Notes under the pieces: generated by a model
The model's database searches: none
What the model was told of the DNA's origin: nothing
Seen by the model: the letters and a program-made list of their open reading frames with translations, nothing else
Position numbers and translations under genes: made by a program
From: a candidate division TA06 bacterium SM23_40
Lineage (GTDB): Bacteria > LJUI01 > SM1-40
DNA: 45,400 nucleotides
NCBI GenBank assembly: GCA_001303705.1
Contig: LJUI01000005.1
Span: forward strand, 1 to 45,400
Direction: 5' to 3'
Shown: in pieces, positions 1,247-37,986 of the stretch
How the letters are laid out: every line of letters begins with the position of its first letter
Numbering within the stretch: position 1 is the first letter of the stretch

Positions 1247-2439
1247 GGTTGGACCTCACGTGGTATGTACGCGTCGAGGTGGGTGAGGTGGCTCGCCTCT
1301 TTGATGAGAGCGTGCGCGATGACCGTCCGCTGGAGCTGATTTGTCCCCTCATAGATCTGTGTTATCTTCGCATCCCTCATATACTTCTCTATGGGATAGT
1401 CCTTCATGTATCCGTAGCCGCCGAATACCTGCACCGCGTTCGTCGTAACCTCCATCGCAACGTCGCTGGCGAAGAGCTTGGCCTGGGAGGAGAGCTTCCT
1501 CGTGCCGGATAGCCCCTGATCGACCGCTGCCGCTGCCGCGTACAGGAGCTGGCGCGCAGCCTCGATCTTCGTCGCCATGTCAGCAAGGAGCTGCTGTATC
1601 ATCTGAAACGAACTGATTGGCTGGCCGAACTGCTCCCGTCGTGTCGCATAGAACATCGCATACTCGAGTGCTCCCTGTGCCAGCCCGACAGCCTGCGCCG
1701 CGACACCCGGGCGCGCCCGATCGATGGTCGACATCGCCTGAAGAAGCCCCCTCCCCAGCTTCCCCCCGAGGATCTGCTCGCGCGGCACCCGACAGTCTCT
1801 GAAGTAGAGTTCACGCACCGGGACACAGCGGATGCCCAGCTTGTCCTCCTCTTTCCCGATCTCGAATCCGGGCGTCTCCTTCTCGACGATGAAGGCGCTG
1901 ATTCTACGCGATCTCGAACTCGGATCGGTGACCGCGAAGACCGTGTAGATGTCCGCCGCCCCTGCGTTGGTCGTCCATTTCTTCTCCCCGTTGATTACGA
2001 AGTCATCGCCGTCCTCGACCGCGCTGGTGCGCATGCTTCCCGCGTCGGTGCCCGCAAACTTCTCCGACAGCCCGAATGCCGCCAGGATCTTCCCCTGCGC
2101 GATATCGGGCAAGTACTTCTGTTTCTGTTCTTCGGTGCCGCTCAGCACGATCGGCAGCGACCCGAGGGCGTTCACCGCGTACATCGTCCCCGCGCCGCCA
2201 CACGCCTTAGAGATCTCTTCTACGCACAGGCAGAGATCGAGAAGCGAACCTCCTCCGCCTCCATATTCGCGGTCGATCCACACTCCCAGCAGTCCGGCCC
2301 CGGCGAGACCCTCCCTGATCTCGTGAGGATAGGTCTGGGAGCGATCGTATTTCGCAGCCAGCGGCCGGACGGTCGCCTCCGCCACGTCCCGCGCCTTCGT
2401 CTGCCACTCTCGATTCTGCTCAGTCAGAAACGCCGACAT
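1243..2439 (-). CDS. Acyl-CoA dehydrogenase
   Basis: AFGLSEKFAGTD, INGEKKWTTN, RREQFGQPI, QVFGGYGY, IYEGTNQLQR motifs; GGAGGTGA RBS before ATG 2439. Confidence 0.95.
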   Translation of the reverse strand: MSAFLTEQNREWQTKARDVAEATVRPLAAKYDRSQTYPHEIREGLAGAGLLGVWIDREYGGGGGSLLDLCLCVEEISKACGGAGTMYAVNALGSLPIVLSGTEEQKQKYLPDIAQGKILAAFGLSEKFAGTDAGSMRTSAVEDGDDFVINGEKKWTTNAGAADIYTVFAVTDPSSRSRRISAFIVEKETPGFEIGKEEDKLGIRCVPVRELYFRDCRVPREQILGGKLGRGLLQAMSTIDRARPGVAAQAVGLAQGALEYAMFYATRREQFGQPISSFQMIQQLLADMATKIEAARQLLYAAAAAVDQGLSGTRKLSSQAKLFASDVAMEVTTNAVQVFGGYGYMKDYPIEKYMRDAKITQIYEGTNQLQRTVIAHALIKEASHLTHLDAYIPREVQP

Positions 2440-2478
2440 CCGGTCACCTCCATCTACACCCACTACACTGCGAAAATC

Positions 2479-3060
2479 TTACGAAAATCTATCGTAGAAA
2501 ACGATCTCGTCGAGCGGCCGCTTACGCTTCTCCACGGGCCAACCGAGAGGATGGCCGACCATGATGAGGTACAGGCAGAGCCAGTTCTCGGGCAGCCGAA
2601 GGACACGACCCACCTTGTCGATGCTGATGGCACCGATCCAGCACGTCCCGAGTCCCAACGAGCGTGCCGCGATCACGAGATTCTCACCAGCGATGATGGC
2701 ATTCTGGTCCTGGTAGATGCTGTCGCGAAGCCGCGCAGGCACGGAGCGCAGCCACTGGTACACTTCTTCACCATGCCGCAGTCGCAGCTTACCGTGCACG
2801 ACGTCCTTCATCTCCTCAAGCGGTGTACACTCGGTGCAGCAGGCAATGATGACAGGCACCTGGCGAATCAGGTCATTCTGGACGACGCATTCTGCGAGCT
2901 CGTCTTTGACCTTCTGGTCCCGGATCACACCGAGCTTCCACTTCACGGGGCCGCCGTGGGGCGCCAGGCGGGCAGCCTCCAGTATCTCGCGGAGGTGCTC
3001 TTCGGACACAGGTCTCGGGCTGTAGTCGCGGACGCTCCTCCTCGCTCTGATTGCTCCCAT
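2479..3060 (-). CDS. Nitroreductase family protein
   Basis: AIRARRSVRDY, ILEAARLAP, AARSLGLGTCWIG motifs; start uncertain (ORF is open to 3303). Confidence 0.88.
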   Translation of the reverse strand: MGAIRARRSVRDYSPRPVSEEHLREILEAARLAPHGGPVKWKLGVIRDQKVKDELAECVVQNDLIRQVPVIIACCTECTPLEEMKDVVHGKLRLRHGEEVYQWLRSVPARLRDSIYQDQNAIIAGENLVIAARSLGLGTCWIGAISIDKVGRVLRLPENWLCLYLIMVGHPLGWPVEKRKRPLDEIVFYDRFS

Positions 3061-3371
3061 TGCACTCGACGTCGACCTCCGCTCGGCGGCGATCTTCATT
3101 CCACGATAGGGAACCCGTAGTACCCTGCGCAGCAGTTGCGCGATCCTTCTCATGCGGTGCGTCCTCCTCGCTCCTGGATTCTCCGCCGCCCGGCCATTCG
3201 ACGACACGCGCCTGGCCGGGCGCATGGCATCGTCTTTGCGATTCCCGGGCTCCCACTCTCCGCAGCATCGGTGGAGCCCCGGGATGTCGGACGAATCCAT
3301 CACAATCTACTCCACTCGCATGCCTGAGGCAACCTCTTTTTGCTCGCCTCCGCGCCCTGTCCGTCTTTCAT

Positions 3372-3900
3372 GGTCCATCGGACCCTCCATGTCCCGGGGA
3401 ACCATTCGTGCTCCTTCGGACCAGCATCCACGTCCCGCCAACGCCTCATGTCTCGTCGAACCATCCACGTCCAGGCCAACACTCATAGCCGAGACGACCC
3501 TGCGTGCGCTATCGAACCCTCCGCGCGCCACCCACCCCCCACGCGCCGTCAGATCCCCCATGCTCCATCGAACCATCCACGCCCCGGGGAACCATCTGCG
3601 TCTCAACGAGCCCTCCACGTCTCAACGAACGCGCCACGTCCCATCGGGCCCTCCAGGTCCCGTCAAACGCTCCATACCTTATTGGACTGCCCGCGTCCCA
3701 TCGAACGCTTCATATCCCATCGAACCATTCGTGTCCCGGCCAACCCCTCATGCGCCAGACAACACTGTGTGCCTATCGAACCTTCCGCGCTCCGGCCACC
3801 CACCACGTGCAACAGGACTCTCCATGTCCCATCCAACGTCCCATCCAACGTCCCATCCAACGCTCCACGTCCCATCGACCCTCCATATTCTCTCGAACAC
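3372..3900. repeat. Degenerate ~19-bp tandem array (~28 units, consensus GTCCCATCGAACCCTCCAC) including a perfect 12-bp x3 tract
   Basis: Manual parsing into units; 12 consecutive 19-nt units at 3543-3770; GTCCCATCCAAC x3 at 3826-3861. Confidence 0.9.
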
Positions 3901-3906
3901 CGACTT

Positions 3907-5442
3907 CTACCACCAGACCGAGCGGTCGAGGCTGCGATATTGAATCGCCTCCGCGACATGCTCGGCGCGTATCAGCTCACTCCCCGCAAGATCCGCGATC
4001 GTTCGTGAAACCTTCAAAATCCGATCATAGGCTCGCCCTGACAGCCCAAACCGTTCCACAGCAACTCGCAACAGGGATTCGCTCTCGGCATCGATACGGC
4101 AAAACTGCCTGACGCCGCGAGGTCCCATGTGGGCATTGCAGAAGAGGCGCCCTTCCACCGCGAACCTCTCCTGCTGCCTCGCCCGCGCGGCATCGACCCG
4201 GAGCCGAATTGCCTGGCTGGACTCGCCACCTGCCTGCGCCGCGAGTTCGCGGTACCTGAGGGCCGGCACCTCGATGTGGATGTCGATCCTGTCAAAGAGG
4301 GGGCCCGAGATCCTCGCCAGGTATCGCTGGATATCGAGGGGAGAGCAGGAGCATTCACGGGTCGGATGGCCGCTGAATCCGCACGGACACGGATTCATCG
4401 CTGCCGCCAGCATAAACCGGGCAGGAAACGTCAGCGAAAGGGCCGCCCGTGTCACCGTCACCTCCCCGTCCTCGAGGGGCTGGCGCAACACCTCGAGCGC
4501 GCGGCGCGAGAACTCAGGCAGCTCATCGAGAAAGAGGACGCCATTATGAGCGAGACTCACCTCACCGGGACGGGGATGGCTCCCGCCCCCCACAAGACCC
4601 ACATCAGAGACCGAGTGGTGAGGGGAACGAAACGGCCTCGTCCCGATGAGCGCCCTGCTCCGCGGAAGGGTTCCTGCCACGCTGTGCACCTTGGTGGTCT
4701 GAAGCGCCTCCTCCAGGCTCATCTCAGGGAGTATCGTCACCAGACGGCGGGCCAGCATCGTCTTCCCCGATCCCGGGGGCCCGATGAGAATGATGTTGTG
4801 GCCGCCCGCCGCCGCCACCTCGAATGCCCGCTTGGCATGCTCCTGACCTTTCACCTCGGCGAAATCGATCGGATACTCCGATGCTCTCCGCACGAGATGT
4901 TCGGCCGAGAGGCGGACCGACGACACCTCCTGTCGCCCGGCCAGGAAATCGATGCATTCGACAAGACTCTCTACCGGATAGATCTCCAGACCATCCACGA
5001 CTGCCGCCTCCCGCACATTAGCCCGCGGCAACACGAGTCCGCTAAATGGACTATCCCTCACCGCGAGAGACATCGGAAGCACGCCGCGGACTCCCCGCAC
5101 CGCTCCATCGAGCGACAGCTCGCCGACGACAACCAACTCCTCCAGCCGCCCGGCATCGAGCTCCCCGGCCGCAGCGAGGATGCCGAGGGCTATGGGCAGA
5201 TCGAAAGCGGGGCCTTCCTTGCGCACATCCGCCGGGGCGAGATTGACCGTCACCCGGCGGGGAGGAAGCTGCAGCCCCGCATTCCTGATGGCTGCCGCTA
5301 CACGCTCTTTCGCCTCCCGGACCACTGCGGTGGGCAGGCCCACCATGGTGAACGATGGCAGGCCGAGGGAGATATCGACCTCTACCTCCACAATGTATCC
5401 ATCAATCCCGAGGACCGCCGCCGCGTGCACTCTTGCCAGCAT
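3907..5442 (-). CDS. comM: ComM/YifB Mg-chelatase-like AAA+ ATPase
   Basis: [28 protein letters not shown] Walker [23 protein letters not shown] motifs; start set at MLARV. Confidence 0.95.
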
Positions 5443-10345: not shown

Positions 10346-10507
10346 CGCACTCTCCGACCGCTTTTCGCTCATCGTCGCCACTTCTCTTTGCTGTCGCCGG
10401 CAGAATTCACAGAGCTAACACGGCTGCCGACGCTGACCTCGAGGTCCAGGTGGCGCCCGTACTCTCACAGCAATCATTCCTCTCTGCGAGATCAAGGAGG
10501 CCTCTCG

Positions 10508-12955
10508 ATGACTCAAGGAACCGTGAACACCGAGGATCTAAGAAAAACCCCTTTGCGCGAGCTATTCGACACACTCTCCTCGAGCGAAAACGGTCTCTCT
10601 TCCCCAGAGGCGAGAGATCGACTCGAGCGCTACGGCCCTAACGAAATCTCCGAGAAGAAAGTGAGTCCCATCCTCAAGTTCCTGAGCTATTTCTGGGGGC
10701 CGATACCGTGGATGATCGAAGTTGCCGCGATACTATCGGCGATCATCCGCCACTGGGAGGACTTCTGGATCATCCTGGCGCTCCTTCTGCTCAATGCAGT
10801 GGTGCGGTTCTGGCAAGAACACAAGGCAGATACAGCCATCGAAGCGCTGAAGGAGAAGCTTGCACTTGTGGCGCGAGTCCTGCGCGATGGCACATGGTCG
10901 CAGATCCCTGCGGGAGAACTCGTTCCAGGAGATGTGGTCCGCGTGCGCCTGGGCGATCGCGTCCCCGCCGACATCAGACTGATCGACGGCGACTACCTCA
11001 TGATAGATGAATCGGCGTTGACCGGAGAATCGATGCCTGTCGAGAAACATGTCGCCGATGTCGCCTACGCCGGTTCGATCATACGTCAGGGGGAGATGAC
11101 AGCTCTCGTCGTTTCCACCGGAATGAGCACTTACTTCGGGAAGACCGCCACGTTGGTGGAAGAGGCAGAGACCCGCAGCCACTTCCAGAGGGCGGTGGTC
11201 AAGATCGGCGACTACCTGATTGCGCTTGGCGGACTGCTCGTGATAACCATCTTTCTTGTGGCGCTCTTCCGTCACGAGAGCCTGCTGGAGACGCTTCAGT
11301 TCGCGCTGGTCCTTACTGTTGCGGCAATACCGGTGGCACTCCCGGCTGTCCTTTCCGTCACCATGGCGGTGGGGGCCATGGCCCTGGCAAGAAAAAAAGC
11401 CATCGTCAGCAGGCTGGTTGCCATTGAGGAAATGGCAGGAATGGATGTGCTCTGTTCGGATAAGACCGGCACCATCACCAAGAATGAGATCACTGTCGCT
11501 GAAGCCGTTCCCCTCGGCTCCTTTGCAGAGAATGATGTTCTGCTCTTCGGGACAATGGCATCGAGGGAGGAAGACAGGGATCCCATCGACGATGCAGTCA
11601 TCGCCGGGGCCGAGAGCTTGCATCTGCTGAATGGGGCATCGGGTGGGTTCAGGGCAGTCGAGTTCACACCCTTTGATCCTGTCTCGAAACGCACGGAAGC
11701 GACCATAGAGGATGCTGAGGGCAAGCGCTTCAAGGTCGCGAAGGGTGCACCTCAGAGTATCCTATCGCTCGCAGCAGAGAGGGAGACTATCAGCGCCGGC
11801 GTGGAAAAACATGTCGATCTTTTTGCCACAAGAGGACAACGTGCACTCGGTGTGGCCAAGACCGACGAGCAGGAAGAGTGGCACTATGTCGGGCTCATAG
11901 CTCTCCAAGATCCAGCGCGTGAAGACTCAGCGGAGACGATAAGGACCGCTCAGTCGATGGGCGTAGATGTGAAGATGGTGACGGGTGACCACACCGCCGT
12001 AGCCAAGGAGATCGCCCGGGAGATACATCTGGGGATGAACATCGTCGAGGCCTCCGCGTTTCTCGACAGACCCGACAGGGAGGCACTGGAAATCGTCGAG
12101 AAGGCGGATGGTTTTGCGCAGGTCTTCCCTGAACACAAGTACCATATTGTAGAACTGCTTCAGGGCAGAGGACATATCGTCGGGATGACAGGAGATGGAG
12201 TCAATGATGCGCCTGCACTCAGGAAGGCCGACGTGGGAATCGCTGTTGCGGGCGCTACCGACGCGGCAAAATCAGCTGCCGCAATCGTGCTGACCACACC
12301 GGGTCTCTCCGTCATAATCGATGCCATAAAGCAGAGCCGAGCTATCTTCCAGCGAATGACCAACTACTCAATCTACCGAATTGCGGAGACGATCAGGGTA
12401 CTGATCTTCATCACACTGTCAATCATCGCGTTTCGCTTCTATCCGGTTTCCGCCCTCATGATTGTCCTGTTGGCGCTCCTGAACGATGCGCCAATCATGA
12501 CCATCGCGTATGACAATGTGAAATACTCTGAGAAACCGGAGAAATGGAATATGCGGGCGATATTGACCATATCGACCATGCTCGGTATCATCGGTGTCCT
12601 ATCGTCCTTCCTGATCCTCTACATCGGCAGGGATCTCTTTCACCTCACCCGCGAGGTCCTCCAATCCTTCATGTATCTGAAACTCTCGGTGGCAGGGCAC
12701 TTCACAGTCTTCGTGGCCCGTACAAGAGGTCCGTTCTGGTCGATCAGACCGGCAAAGCCGGTCTTCATGGCAGTCATAGTGACGCAACTTATCGCCACAT
12801 TGATCACTGTCTATGGGATATTACTGCCTGCGATGGGTTGGAGACTCGCATTCTTCGTATGGGGCTACGCCCTCGCCGCCTTTCTCATAACCGACCTCCT
12901 GAAGACGCGCCTCTACAGCGTTCTGGACCATGGCGGCATACGGTTCCACCGATAA
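10508..12955 (+). CDS. Plasma-membrane proton-efflux P-type ATPase (P3A)
   Basis: LTGES, AIPVALP, DKTGT phosphorylation site, GDGVNDAPAL, LLNDAPIMTIAYD (proton-acceptor Asp); AAGGAGG RBS. Confidence 0.93.
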   Translation: MTQGTVNTEDLRKTPLRELFDTLSSSENGLSSPEARDRLERYGPNEISEKKVSPILKFLSYFWGPIPWMIEVAAILSAIIRHWEDFWIILALLLLNAVVRFWQEHKADTAIEALKEKLALVARVLRDGTWSQIPAGELVPGDVVRVRLGDRVPADIRLIDGDYLMIDESALTGESMPVEKHVADVAYAGSIIRQGEMTALVVSTGMSTYFGKTATLVEEAETRSHFQRAVVKIGDYLIALGGLLVITIFLVALFRHESLLETLQFALVLTVAAIPVALPAVLSVTMAVGAMALARKKAIVSRLVAIEEMAGMDVLCSDKTGTITKNEITVAEAVPLGSFAENDVLLFGTMASREEDRDPIDDAVIAGAESLHLLNGASGGFRAVEFTPFDPVSKRTEATIEDAEGKRFKVAKGAPQSILSLAAERETISAGVEKHVDLFATRGQRALGVAKTDEQEEWHYVGLIALQDPAREDSAETIRTAQSMGVDVKMVTGDHTAVAKEIAREIHLGMNIVEASAFLDRPDREALEIVEKADGFAQVFPEHKYHIVELLQGRGHIVGMTGDGVNDAPALRKADVGIAVAGATDAAKSAAAIVLTTPGLSVIIDAIKQSRAIFQRMTNYSIYRIAETIRVLIFITLSIIAFRFYPVSALMIVLLALLNDAPIMTIAYDNVKYSEKPEKWNMRAILTISTMLGIIGVLSSFLILYIGRDLFHLTREVLQSFMYLKLSVAGHFTVFVARTRGPFWSIRPAKPVFMAVIVTQLIATLITVYGILLPAMGWRLAFFVWGYALAAFLITDLLKTRLYSVLDHGGIRFHR

Positions 12956-21798: not shown

Positions 21799-21895
21799 AA
21801 CTGCATCCTCCTTCACTTCACTTCTCATCAGCTCGTTGCGTGTGAACTCGCTCCATGCTGCTTCTGCTCGCTCAATGCCACTTCTGCCCTCTGCT

Positions 21896-21930
21896 TCTCT
21901 ATGTGCCTCCGCCTCTCTATGTGCCTCCGC
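21896..21930. repeat. 18-bp-period tandem duplication spanning the ackA stop codon
   Basis: TCTCTATGTGCCTCCGC at 21896-21912 and 21914-21930. Confidence 0.85.
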
Positions 21931-26806: not shown

Positions 26807-26836
26807 CTCCGGACCGCCACCCTCCGGACCGCCACC
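26807..26836. repeat. Perfect 15-bp tandem duplication between rimM and trmD
   Basis: CTCCGGACCGCCACC x2. Confidence 0.85.
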
Positions 26837-27783: not shown

Positions 27784-28194
27784 TCAGGTCTCAGCATCCT
27801 CGTCTTCGGCTGTCTCGAGCGACGGCTCCTCGCCGCCTTCAGCTGACTCGACCGGCATCTCCTCGCCACCCTCAGCTGACTCGACCGGCATCTCCTCGCC
27901 GCCTTCAGCTATCTCGACCGGCATCTCCTCCCCAGCCGCGGCTGATACACCACCTCCTCCCGCGCGATATCGGGCGATGAGCCGGGCCGCCGCCTGCGTA
28001 GGCTGTGCGCCTCGCTCCTCCCACAGGCGGACCTTCTCTTCATCGATCTCGAGCGCACCCTCAGAGCGAGGATCGTAGTATCCGACAATGTCGATGAACT
28101 TCCCGTCTCGAGGCATTCCCGAATCAGCTACCACAACTCTGTAAAAGGGTCGCTTCCTCGAACCCGTCCTACGCAACCGGATGCGTACTGACAC
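27784..28194 (-). CDS. rpsP: 30S ribosomal protein S16 with acidic repeat tail
   Basis: [31 protein letters not shown]. Confidence 0.96.
27826..27930. repeat. 33-bp in-frame tandem repeat ([11 protein letters not shown]) in the rpsP tail
   Basis: About three copies of CTCCTCGCCRCCYTCAGCTGACTCGACCGGCAT. Confidence 0.85.
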
Positions 28195-37871: not shown

Positions 37872-37986
37872 TAACCTTCATAACCTAGGTGCGTTCCGGG
37901 TGCCGGAAGCCGTTAACCTTCTGAACCTACCAACGTCCCCGGGTGCCGGGAGCCCGTAACCTTCTGAACCTACCAACGTCCCCGGG
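37872..37986. repeat. 42/43-bp tandem repeat (~2.7 copies) with internal hairpin, immediately downstream of ruvB
   Basis: TAACCTTC starts at 37872, 37914 and 37957; copies 2 and 3 identical over 30 nt. Confidence 0.88.

What the first reader, a model, noticed from the sequence alone, without database searches (positions are those of the whole stretch)
3372..3900. Hierarchical 19-bp minisatellite abutting the comM stop codon
Seen: about 28 degenerate units (consensus GTCCCATCGAACCCTCCAC) fill most of the nitroreductase-comM gap and end ~6 bp from the comM stop. Twelve consecutive units (3543-3770) keep an exact 19-nt period despite heavy substitution. There is higher-order structure: 3450-3542 resembles 3714-3806, and 3372-3409 resembles 3562-3599. 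A truncated 12-mer is repeated perfectly three times (3826-3861), suggesting recent expansion. The array is strongly strand-skewed (C-rich on +), has no unique spacers, and its period is not a multiple of 3. Inference: conserved spacing with drifting sequence suggests a phased protein-binding array. Alternatively, the minus-strand (comM-sense) RNA carries many GGA/GGAGG motifs and could act as a CsrB-like sponge. It may also be a neutral VNTR.
Basis: partly seen in the sequence, partly recalled or inferred. Interest (0 to 1): 0.8.

Follow-up and report, generated by a model that had tools for sequence, protein, structure and literature searches.

The report
Genome-wide locus-unique degenerate minisatellites
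The 19-base repeat behind comM is real, but it is the longest of dozens of mutually unrelated repeat arrays between this uncultured bacterium's genes, mostly with units of 15-24 bases, and is likely a tolerated by-product of DNA copying rather than a regulatory element.

Summary
The array is real: lag-19 z=10.5, about 28 units, same consensus, an old ~265-bp block duplication, and no difference in four runs that cover it wholly or partly. It is not a one-off. The genome holds 79 such arrays (0 in shuffled DNA): 66 non-coding, and 13 coding, all with in-frame periods. Their units are unrelated. Frame-breaking arrays number 41 in 2.88 Mb against 1 in 1.58 Mb from 18 other genomes. The binding-array and CsrB ideas fail: no conserved core beyond a neutral simulation, 9 of 28 units off-length, no csrA found, no special fold. 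Best reading: small local duplications grow into arrays and drift where tolerated. One oddity stands out: 4 arrays with 10-14-bp units against 68 with 15-24-bp units, although two-copy duplications of 10-14 bp are common. This suggests a minimum pairing length for expansion (RecA is a guess). The scan noted similar habits in other uncultured genomes. Borg and Ehrlichia repeats are published precedents.

The parts
3372..3905 (.). Degenerate 19-bp minisatellite, about 28 units plus a fading last one; longest of 66 non-coding arrays in the genome
3375..3617 (.). First half of an old ~265-bp (about 14-unit) block duplication
   Evidence: 70% over 250 nt to 3641-3885, E 1e-17; alignment
3641..3885 (.). 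Second half of the block duplication
3543..3770 (.). Run of units in exact 19-nt register
3826..3862 (.). Perfect triplet of a 12-nt partial unit; inferred to be a recent slippage
   Evidence: 100%, 3.1 copies
3907..5442 (-). comM / YifB-type Mg-chelatase-like ATPase gene; stop codon at 3907-3909 (context)
2479..3153 (-). Nitroreductase gene; start at 3153 inferred from a ribosome-binding site (context)
27795..27942 (-). Coding member of the same class: 33-bp unit, about 4.5 copies, inside a called gene
37872..37986 (.). Young 43-bp tandem duplication (about 2.7 copies, 84%) in a gap beside ruvB
21847..21930 (.). Two adjacent short duplications (20 and 18 bp units), an early stage of the same habit (inferred)
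26807..26836 (.). Perfect two-copy 15-bp duplication in a gap

Best explanation
The array is one of about 66-98 non-coding minisatellites in this genome, each with its own unrelated unit, and it is likely a tolerated by-product of local DNA duplication with no sequence-specific job. Proposed course: (1) short head-to-tail duplications arise from local sequence (young perfect copies shown; slippage as the cause is inferred); (2) units of about 15 bp or more then expand to many copies, while 10-14-bp units rarely do (pattern shown); this would follow if expansion needs an out-of-register pairing of about 15-20 bp, such as RecA-mediated unequal exchange or gap repair (inferred, about 0.35); (3) point mutation, block duplications and partial-unit slips give the degenerate, hierarchical look (structure shown, order inferred); (4) selection would remove frame-breaking arrays from genes and leave gaps alone (13 of 13 coding arrays in frame shown; cause inferred).
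For: 79 arrays against 0 in block-shuffled DNA. 66 non-coding, of which 43 have periods not divisible by 3, as expected without frame constraint; 13 of 13 coding arrays are in frame. Units unrelated: best 12-nt match among 51 units averages 7.94 vs 7.92 shuffled. No shared flank: one flank pair alike; 19 of 129 flanks multi-copy vs 104 of 482 control gap pieces. No preference for gene orientation (46 of 650, 8 of 122, 4 of 50 gaps; P 0.94) or for gene end (23 of 46 nearer the upstream stop). Sense-strand G skew (39 of 46) is close to ordinary gaps (76.5% of 605). Perfect duplications of 13 bp or more: 20 in gaps, 18 inside arrays, 13 in genes (11 in frame), 0 in shuffles. Target columns fit neutral simulation; no codon-position bias (P 0.79). 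One X5 contig goes back 62 nt inside a sister 16-bp array and differs at 8 listed places there. Unit-length step: 4 vs 68 arrays at 10-14 vs 15-24 bp, detection power 0.76-0.90 at 10-14, about 31 vs 19 excess two-copy duplications, Fisher P 7e-12. RecA products approach full stability at 15-20 bp (PMC4666392, passages); recA, ruvABC present.
Against: No copy-number change at this locus in four runs, so present instability is not shown here. The 62-nt gain rests on one contig at depth 6, laid at 90% likeness, next to a contig with 11 differences in 428 nt that extends outside the array. No sister species was available, so conservation could not be tested. Units are about 26% diverged from consensus, so 530 bp has persisted a long time, which bacterial deletion bias (recalled) should oppose. 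mutS, mutL, xseA, recJ and a Y-family polymerase are all present: no repair defect explains the excess. Gene calls come from my own self-trained caller. Perfect duplications are not clearly more frequent than in controls (17.7 vs 12.7 per Mb, 13 of the 20 control cases from one genome).
Confidence: 0.72

Rival explanations
1. The arrays work as a class, whatever their sequence: spacers or insulators between genes, loading zones for Rho or nucleoid proteins, or length tuners of untranslated regions.
For: About one in ten long gaps holds one (53 of 535); they persist despite about 26% divergence; the target was unchanged in four runs.
Against: No bias for orientation or gene end; composition follows ordinary gaps; the comM-sense strand is G-rich and C-poor, the opposite of a Rho loading site (rule recalled); in run X4, 1 of 11 listed differences falls in arrays that make up about 9% of the stretch.
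Confidence: 0.12
2. A dedicated enzyme (a reiterating polymerase or reverse transcriptase, or an integrase-like copier) writes the arrays and sets the unit length.
For: Sharp onset of periods at 15-16 bp; about 20-fold excess over control genomes; unit identity does not fall with distance along the target, as after a burst.
Against: The only reverse transcriptase found is a 499-aa ORF that looks like a group II intron maturase (likeness recalled). The substitution spectrum is ordinary: Ts/Tv 1.2, A/T positions 24% and C/G positions 20% changed, not adenine-specific. No shared leader or flank.
Confidence: 0.08
3. This locus is a specific protein-binding array (iteron, operator or origin-like).
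For: About 28 similar sites with long in-register runs.
Against: No core beyond neutral expectation. No DnaA-box-like site within one mismatch and no AT-rich patch (lowest 50-nt GC 0.48); such boxes lie beside dnaA on another contig. The 33 further genes scanned in the window are housekeeping or unnamed, with no replication initiator or integrase among the hits. The period is off helical phase.
Confidence: 0.05
4. The comM-sense RNA is a CsrB-like sponge.
For: 32 GGA vs 24.9 in shuffles (P 0.027).
Against: No csrA found (the same search finds it in 3 of 14 control genomes); no Rfam match of note; fold z -0.39; GGAs not loop-exposed; no sigma-70-like promoter or terminator-like site in 3050-4000.
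Confidence: 0.02

Closest known systems
Tandem repeats of archaeal Borg elements (Schoelmerich et al. 2023, PMC9879509; abstract, sections 2.1.3-2.1.4 and passages read)
   Same: Many arrays per genome, nearly all with unique units; those in genes have units divisible by 3, those between genes mostly not; slippage proposed.
   Different: Borg repeats are perfect, A-rich, recent and on extrachromosomal elements. These are 10-32% diverged from consensus, 65% GC, depleted in AA/TT/TA, hierarchical, and on a bacterial chromosome among housekeeping genes.
Non-coding tandem repeats of Ehrlichia ruminantium (PMC10710844, passages; the primary papers were not held)
   Same: A bacterial chromosome with expansion and contraction aimed at non-coding tandem repeats.
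   Different: Ehrlichia is a host-restricted organism with about 64% coding DNA; this genome is about 85% coding by my caller and the arrays are 0.5% of it. Unit lengths could not be compared.
Bacterial VNTR/minisatellite loci used for MLVA typing (PMC2257963, passages)
   Same: Locus-specific units of similar size (21, 18, 17 and 9 bp in the four table rows seen).
   Different: Those loci are defined by copy-number alleles; none was seen at this locus, and the units here are highly degenerate.
BrickBuilt minisatellite-bearing MITE of Porphyromonas gingivalis (PMC4596501, search listing only)
   Same: Intergenic minisatellite in a bacterium.
   Different: It sits in a repeated mobile element; here units and flanks are not shared between arrays.
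CsrB/CsrC/RsmZ sponge RNAs (PMC6546359, PMC4894983, search listings only)
   Same: Many GGA triplets on one strand.
   Different: No csrA found, no loop display, no terminator, no Rfam match.

Membership tests
Bacterial minisatellite / VNTR | Head-to-tail units of about 10-100 bp | tested here: met
Bacterial minisatellite / VNTR | Copy number varies between strains | tested here: inconclusive
   None at this locus in 4 runs; one 62-nt gain in a sister array in 1 of 4 runs, one contig
Borg-type pervasive tandem repeats | Many arrays with unique units | tested here: met
   one related pair (C173/C183) and one CT-run match among 66
Borg-type pervasive tandem repeats | Coding arrays in frame, intergenic ones unconstrained | tested here: met
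   13 of 13 coding in frame; 43 of 66 non-coding not
Borg-type pervasive tandem repeats | Perfect, A-rich units on an extrachromosomal element | tested here: not met
CsrB-family sponge RNA | CsrA encoded in the genome | tested here: not met
   genome 89.8% complete, so absence is not proven
CsrB-family sponge RNA | GGA motifs in hairpin loops | tested here: not met
   mean unpaired 0.52 vs 0.59 in 40 shuffles; fold z -0.39
CsrB-family sponge RNA | Discrete transcript | not testable with these tools
   no RNA data to lay
Iteron / DnaA-box array | Conserved core, helical phasing, AT-rich unwinding patch, nearby initiator gene | tested here: not met
CRISPR array | Constant repeat alternating with unique spacers | tested here: not met
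   units abut and vary along their whole length; no Rfam hit
Minisatellite-bearing MITE | Shared leader, tail or terminal repeats around the array | tested here: not met
   window 3001-3950 hits only itself in the genome; flanks not shared
Protein-coding repeat | Period divisible by 3, codon-position bias, family match | tested here: not met
   lag 57 weaker than 19 and 38; mismatches 33/28/28 by position; no Pfam match for the three plus-strand ORFs

The most novel reading that the evidence does not exclude
This bacterium, which has no phylum-level relative in the genome set searched, runs a sequence-blind but length-gated repeat expansion process: any local duplication of about 15-16 bp or more can grow into a satellite-like array with higher-order structure, while shorter ones stay at two copies. 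Its chromosome would be a natural record of the minimum pairing length of a bacterial recombination or repair step, possibly of an undescribed enzyme.
Probability: 0.3. Interest if true: 0.65.

Novelty: new variant of a known kind. Interest (0 to 1): 0.38.

Why it matters
For the locus itself: it removes a tempting regulatory story; the array needs no dedicated protein or RNA partner. For the class: old, degenerate, hierarchical minisatellites with frame-breaking periods are about 20 times denser here than in stretches of 18 other genomes, with the repair genes tested all present. The step in unit length at 15-16 bp gives a testable handle on how a two-copy duplication becomes an array, and on why some bacteria keep such DNA.

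Tried and rejected
Homologues of the array: only short chance-level hits in 60 other genomes, best E 0.003 over 31 nt; no match to a two-unit pattern in viral contigs. No relatives: the phylum search returned only this genome; the best comM matches elsewhere were about 62% identical; the nitroreductase scan gave 3 identical loci and 20 at 43% or less. Run X5 holds short contigs of 85-94% identical relatives over 2969-3232, which do not reach the array. No RNA holder listed. No tRNA in the window; Rfam gave one hit at E 1.1 inside comM. No canonical three-tier G-quadruplex pattern. The plus strand has 1 stop triplet vs 5.6 in shuffles (P 0.013), but the consensus unit has none and repeats are not independent; over all 66 arrays stop density equals other gap DNA (48 vs 50 per kb), so coding was rejected. 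Half-period substructure in only 3 of 50 arrays and not in the target, so 16-24-bp units are not simply dimers of short ones. Copy number correlates with divergence (rho 0.66), but I set this aside because detection and consensus building bias it. Lenient TRF (score 50) gives a smaller excess, 53 vs 8 (3.6-fold), with 4 chance hits in shuffles; from score 65 upward it is 48 vs 2 and from 80 upward 44 vs 1. Counting all arrays, in-frame ones included, the excess is only 27 vs 11 per Mb. A 16-bp direct repeat on both sides of the array (3344 and 3945) is within chance by my estimate. Five literature searches (listings only) showed no paper on a unit-length threshold for bacterial minisatellite expansion; three older papers that may bear on it were not held. 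No supplements were read.

Full report
Observation. The repeat is there as described. Autocorrelation over 3340-3915 peaks at lag 19 (0.49 vs 0.30, z 10.5) and 38 (z 8.4), far above the maximum of 4.3 in 1000 shuffles. The 12-mer triplet is perfect. The higher-order match is larger than reported: 3375-3617 and 3641-3885 align at 70% over 250 nt. Nine of the first 28 units are not 19 nt long. The array lies between comM (minus strand, stop 3907-3909) and a nitroreductase gene, on a contig of housekeeping genes such as ffh, trmD, ruvABC and EF-G. Contigs from two runs span it with no difference inside it and two more cover parts with none (X2 may be the source); L039 is identical across it.

The unit is single-locus. 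A profile of the unit finds an array only here in the 2.88-Mb genome. The DNA has only chance-level hits in 60 other genomes. No phylum-level relative is held, so conservation between species could not be tested.

The habit is genome-wide. A sequence-blind periodicity scan gave 93 raw peaks and, after boundary and copy filters, 79 arrays against 0 in block-shuffled DNA. With a self-trained gene caller (2378 genes, 85% coding), 66 arrays are non-coding (43 with periods not divisible by 3) and 13 are coding, all in frame. A more sensitive scan finds arrays in 98 of 1782 intergenic pieces. The target is the longest non-coding one (515 bp; median 207 bp, median period 21). Units are unrelated: among 51 units of 14-27 bp the best 12-nt match averages 7.94 vs 7.92 for shuffles. 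A BLAST of all 66 finds one related pair and one CT-run match. Flanks are not shared and are no more repetitive than other gap DNA (19 of 129 vs 104 of 482). Arrays show no preference for co-directional, divergent or convergent gaps (P 0.94) or for either gene end (23 of 46). Their sense-strand G skew (39 of 46) resembles ordinary gaps (76.5% of 605).

How unusual. In 1.58 Mb taken from 18 other genomes (40-160 kb each, chosen by me for contig size and GC, none a relative), frame-breaking arrays of period 13 or more number 1, against 41 in this genome (0.6 vs 14.2 per Mb). TRF agrees from score 65 upward (48 vs 2) but gives only 3.6-fold at score 50. Counting all arrays, the ratio is 2.5-fold, and one control genome is itself repeat-rich. 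Perfect two-copy duplications of 13 bp or more are not clearly more frequent than in controls (17.7 vs 12.7 per Mb). So what stands out is growth and retention of arrays, not their birth.

Tests of function at this locus. Binding array: variance of column conservation over 17 full-length units is within neutral duplication-mutation simulations (P 0.23-0.99). Substitutions per indel are about 8 here and 9.6 over the 66 arrays, by an aligner that tends to overcount indels. There is no DnaA-box-like site or AT-rich patch, whereas such boxes flank dnaA on contig C19. Sponge: no csrA over the cut-off (genome 89.8% complete), fold z -0.39 and +1.11 for the two strands, GGAs less exposed than in shuffles, no promoter-like or terminator-like site. 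GGA is mildly enriched (P 0.027), ANGGA is not (P 0.19). Coding: three plus-strand ORFs of 202-263 aa cross the array but have no Pfam match and no codon-position bias.

Dynamics. Young perfect duplications of 13 bp or more occur in gaps (20), inside arrays (18) and in genes (13, of which 11 in frame), with none in shuffles. Laying four runs on 10.2 kb with four sister arrays, one X5 contig goes back 62 nt inside a 16-bp array and differs at 8 listed places there; this is one contig at depth 6, beside a contig that is divergent outside the array too, and only 40 of 130 difference rows were shown. In X4, 1 of 11 listed differences falls in arrays covering about 9% of the stretch, which shows neither protection nor hypermutation. 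The target itself did not vary.

The unit-length step. Arrays with 3.5 or more copies number 4 at periods 10-14 and 68 at 15-24 (9 more at 7-9). Planted arrays of 10-14 bp are detected 76-90% of the time. TRF, whose score cut-off disfavours short units, gives 7 vs 60. Only 3 of 50 arrays show half-period substructure. I infer that expansion beyond two copies needs about 15-16 bp of out-of-register pairing. RecA strand-exchange products approach full stability at 15-20 bp (PMC4666392, passages), and recA and ruvABC are present. That link is a hypothesis; RecA-independent slippage with a length-dependent rate is not excluded. mutS, mutL, xseA, recJ and a Y-family polymerase are present. The one reverse transcriptase looks like a group II intron maturase (likeness recalled), and the substitution spectrum is ordinary.

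Comparison. Borg elements show the same logic (unique units, in-frame in genes, unconstrained between genes) but with perfect, A-rich, recent repeats off the chromosome (PMC9879509; abstract, sections 2.1.3-2.1.4 and passages). Ehrlichia ruminantium expands and contracts non-coding tandem repeats (PMC10710844, passages). Earlier notes of this scan describe similar habits in other uncultured genomes, some with their own preferred unit lengths; these are unchecked leads, and my genome-wide scan came before I saw them. Five literature searches, seen as listings only, showed no account of a unit-length threshold.

Verdict. Real feature, probably without a locus-specific function; a new variant of a known kind. 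Interest 0.38, carried by the genome-wide density, the degenerate hierarchical state and the unexplained step at 15-16 bp.

Noticed in passing
L041:1-395, junction at window 3602: A 1616-nt metagenome contig matches the window from at least 2401 to 3602 (one difference, at 3599) and then switches, inside the array, to DNA not found in this genome. That DNA encodes the first third of an acyltransferase-3 domain, cut at the junction. Single contig: probably a chimeric join, possibly an insertion.
   Followed up: partly
L149:9720 (G000:C164, about 31719): An X4 contig carries about 139 extra bases at this point, and X5 and X8 pieces start at the same place, so other strains probably hold an insertion that the reference lacks. 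Not inside a detected array.
   Followed up: no
window 3243-3284: A 14-bp inverted repeat (79% complementary, 14-nt loop) between the array and the nitroreductase start, with no T-run after it.
   Followed up: partly
window 3344-3359 and 3945-3960: A 16-bp direct repeat (88%) flanks the array, one copy inside the comM 3' end. comM is a known integration site (recalled), but the match is within chance by my estimate.
   Followed up: partly
G000:C173:14384-14646 and G000:C183:1594-1790: The only pair of arrays with related units, both built on a 7-base word; a heptamer-type repeat distinct from the main class.
   Followed up: no
L148:1009-2508 (G000:C4): A 499-aa reverse transcriptase ORF, the only one found in the genome, resembling a group II intron maturase.
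   Followed up: partly
window 10388-12955: A P-type ATPase that passes the cut-off of the plasma-membrane proton-efflux family TIGR01647, just downstream of a formate-tetrahydrofolate ligase gene.
   Followed up: no
L180:14660-17720 (G060): One control genome has four different arrays (periods 15, 51, 9, 41) within about 3 kb and 13 perfect duplications in 100 kb, so it may have a similar habit.
   Followed up: no
G000:C100:48186-49607: A second RecJ-like gene below the family cut-off.
   Followed up: no
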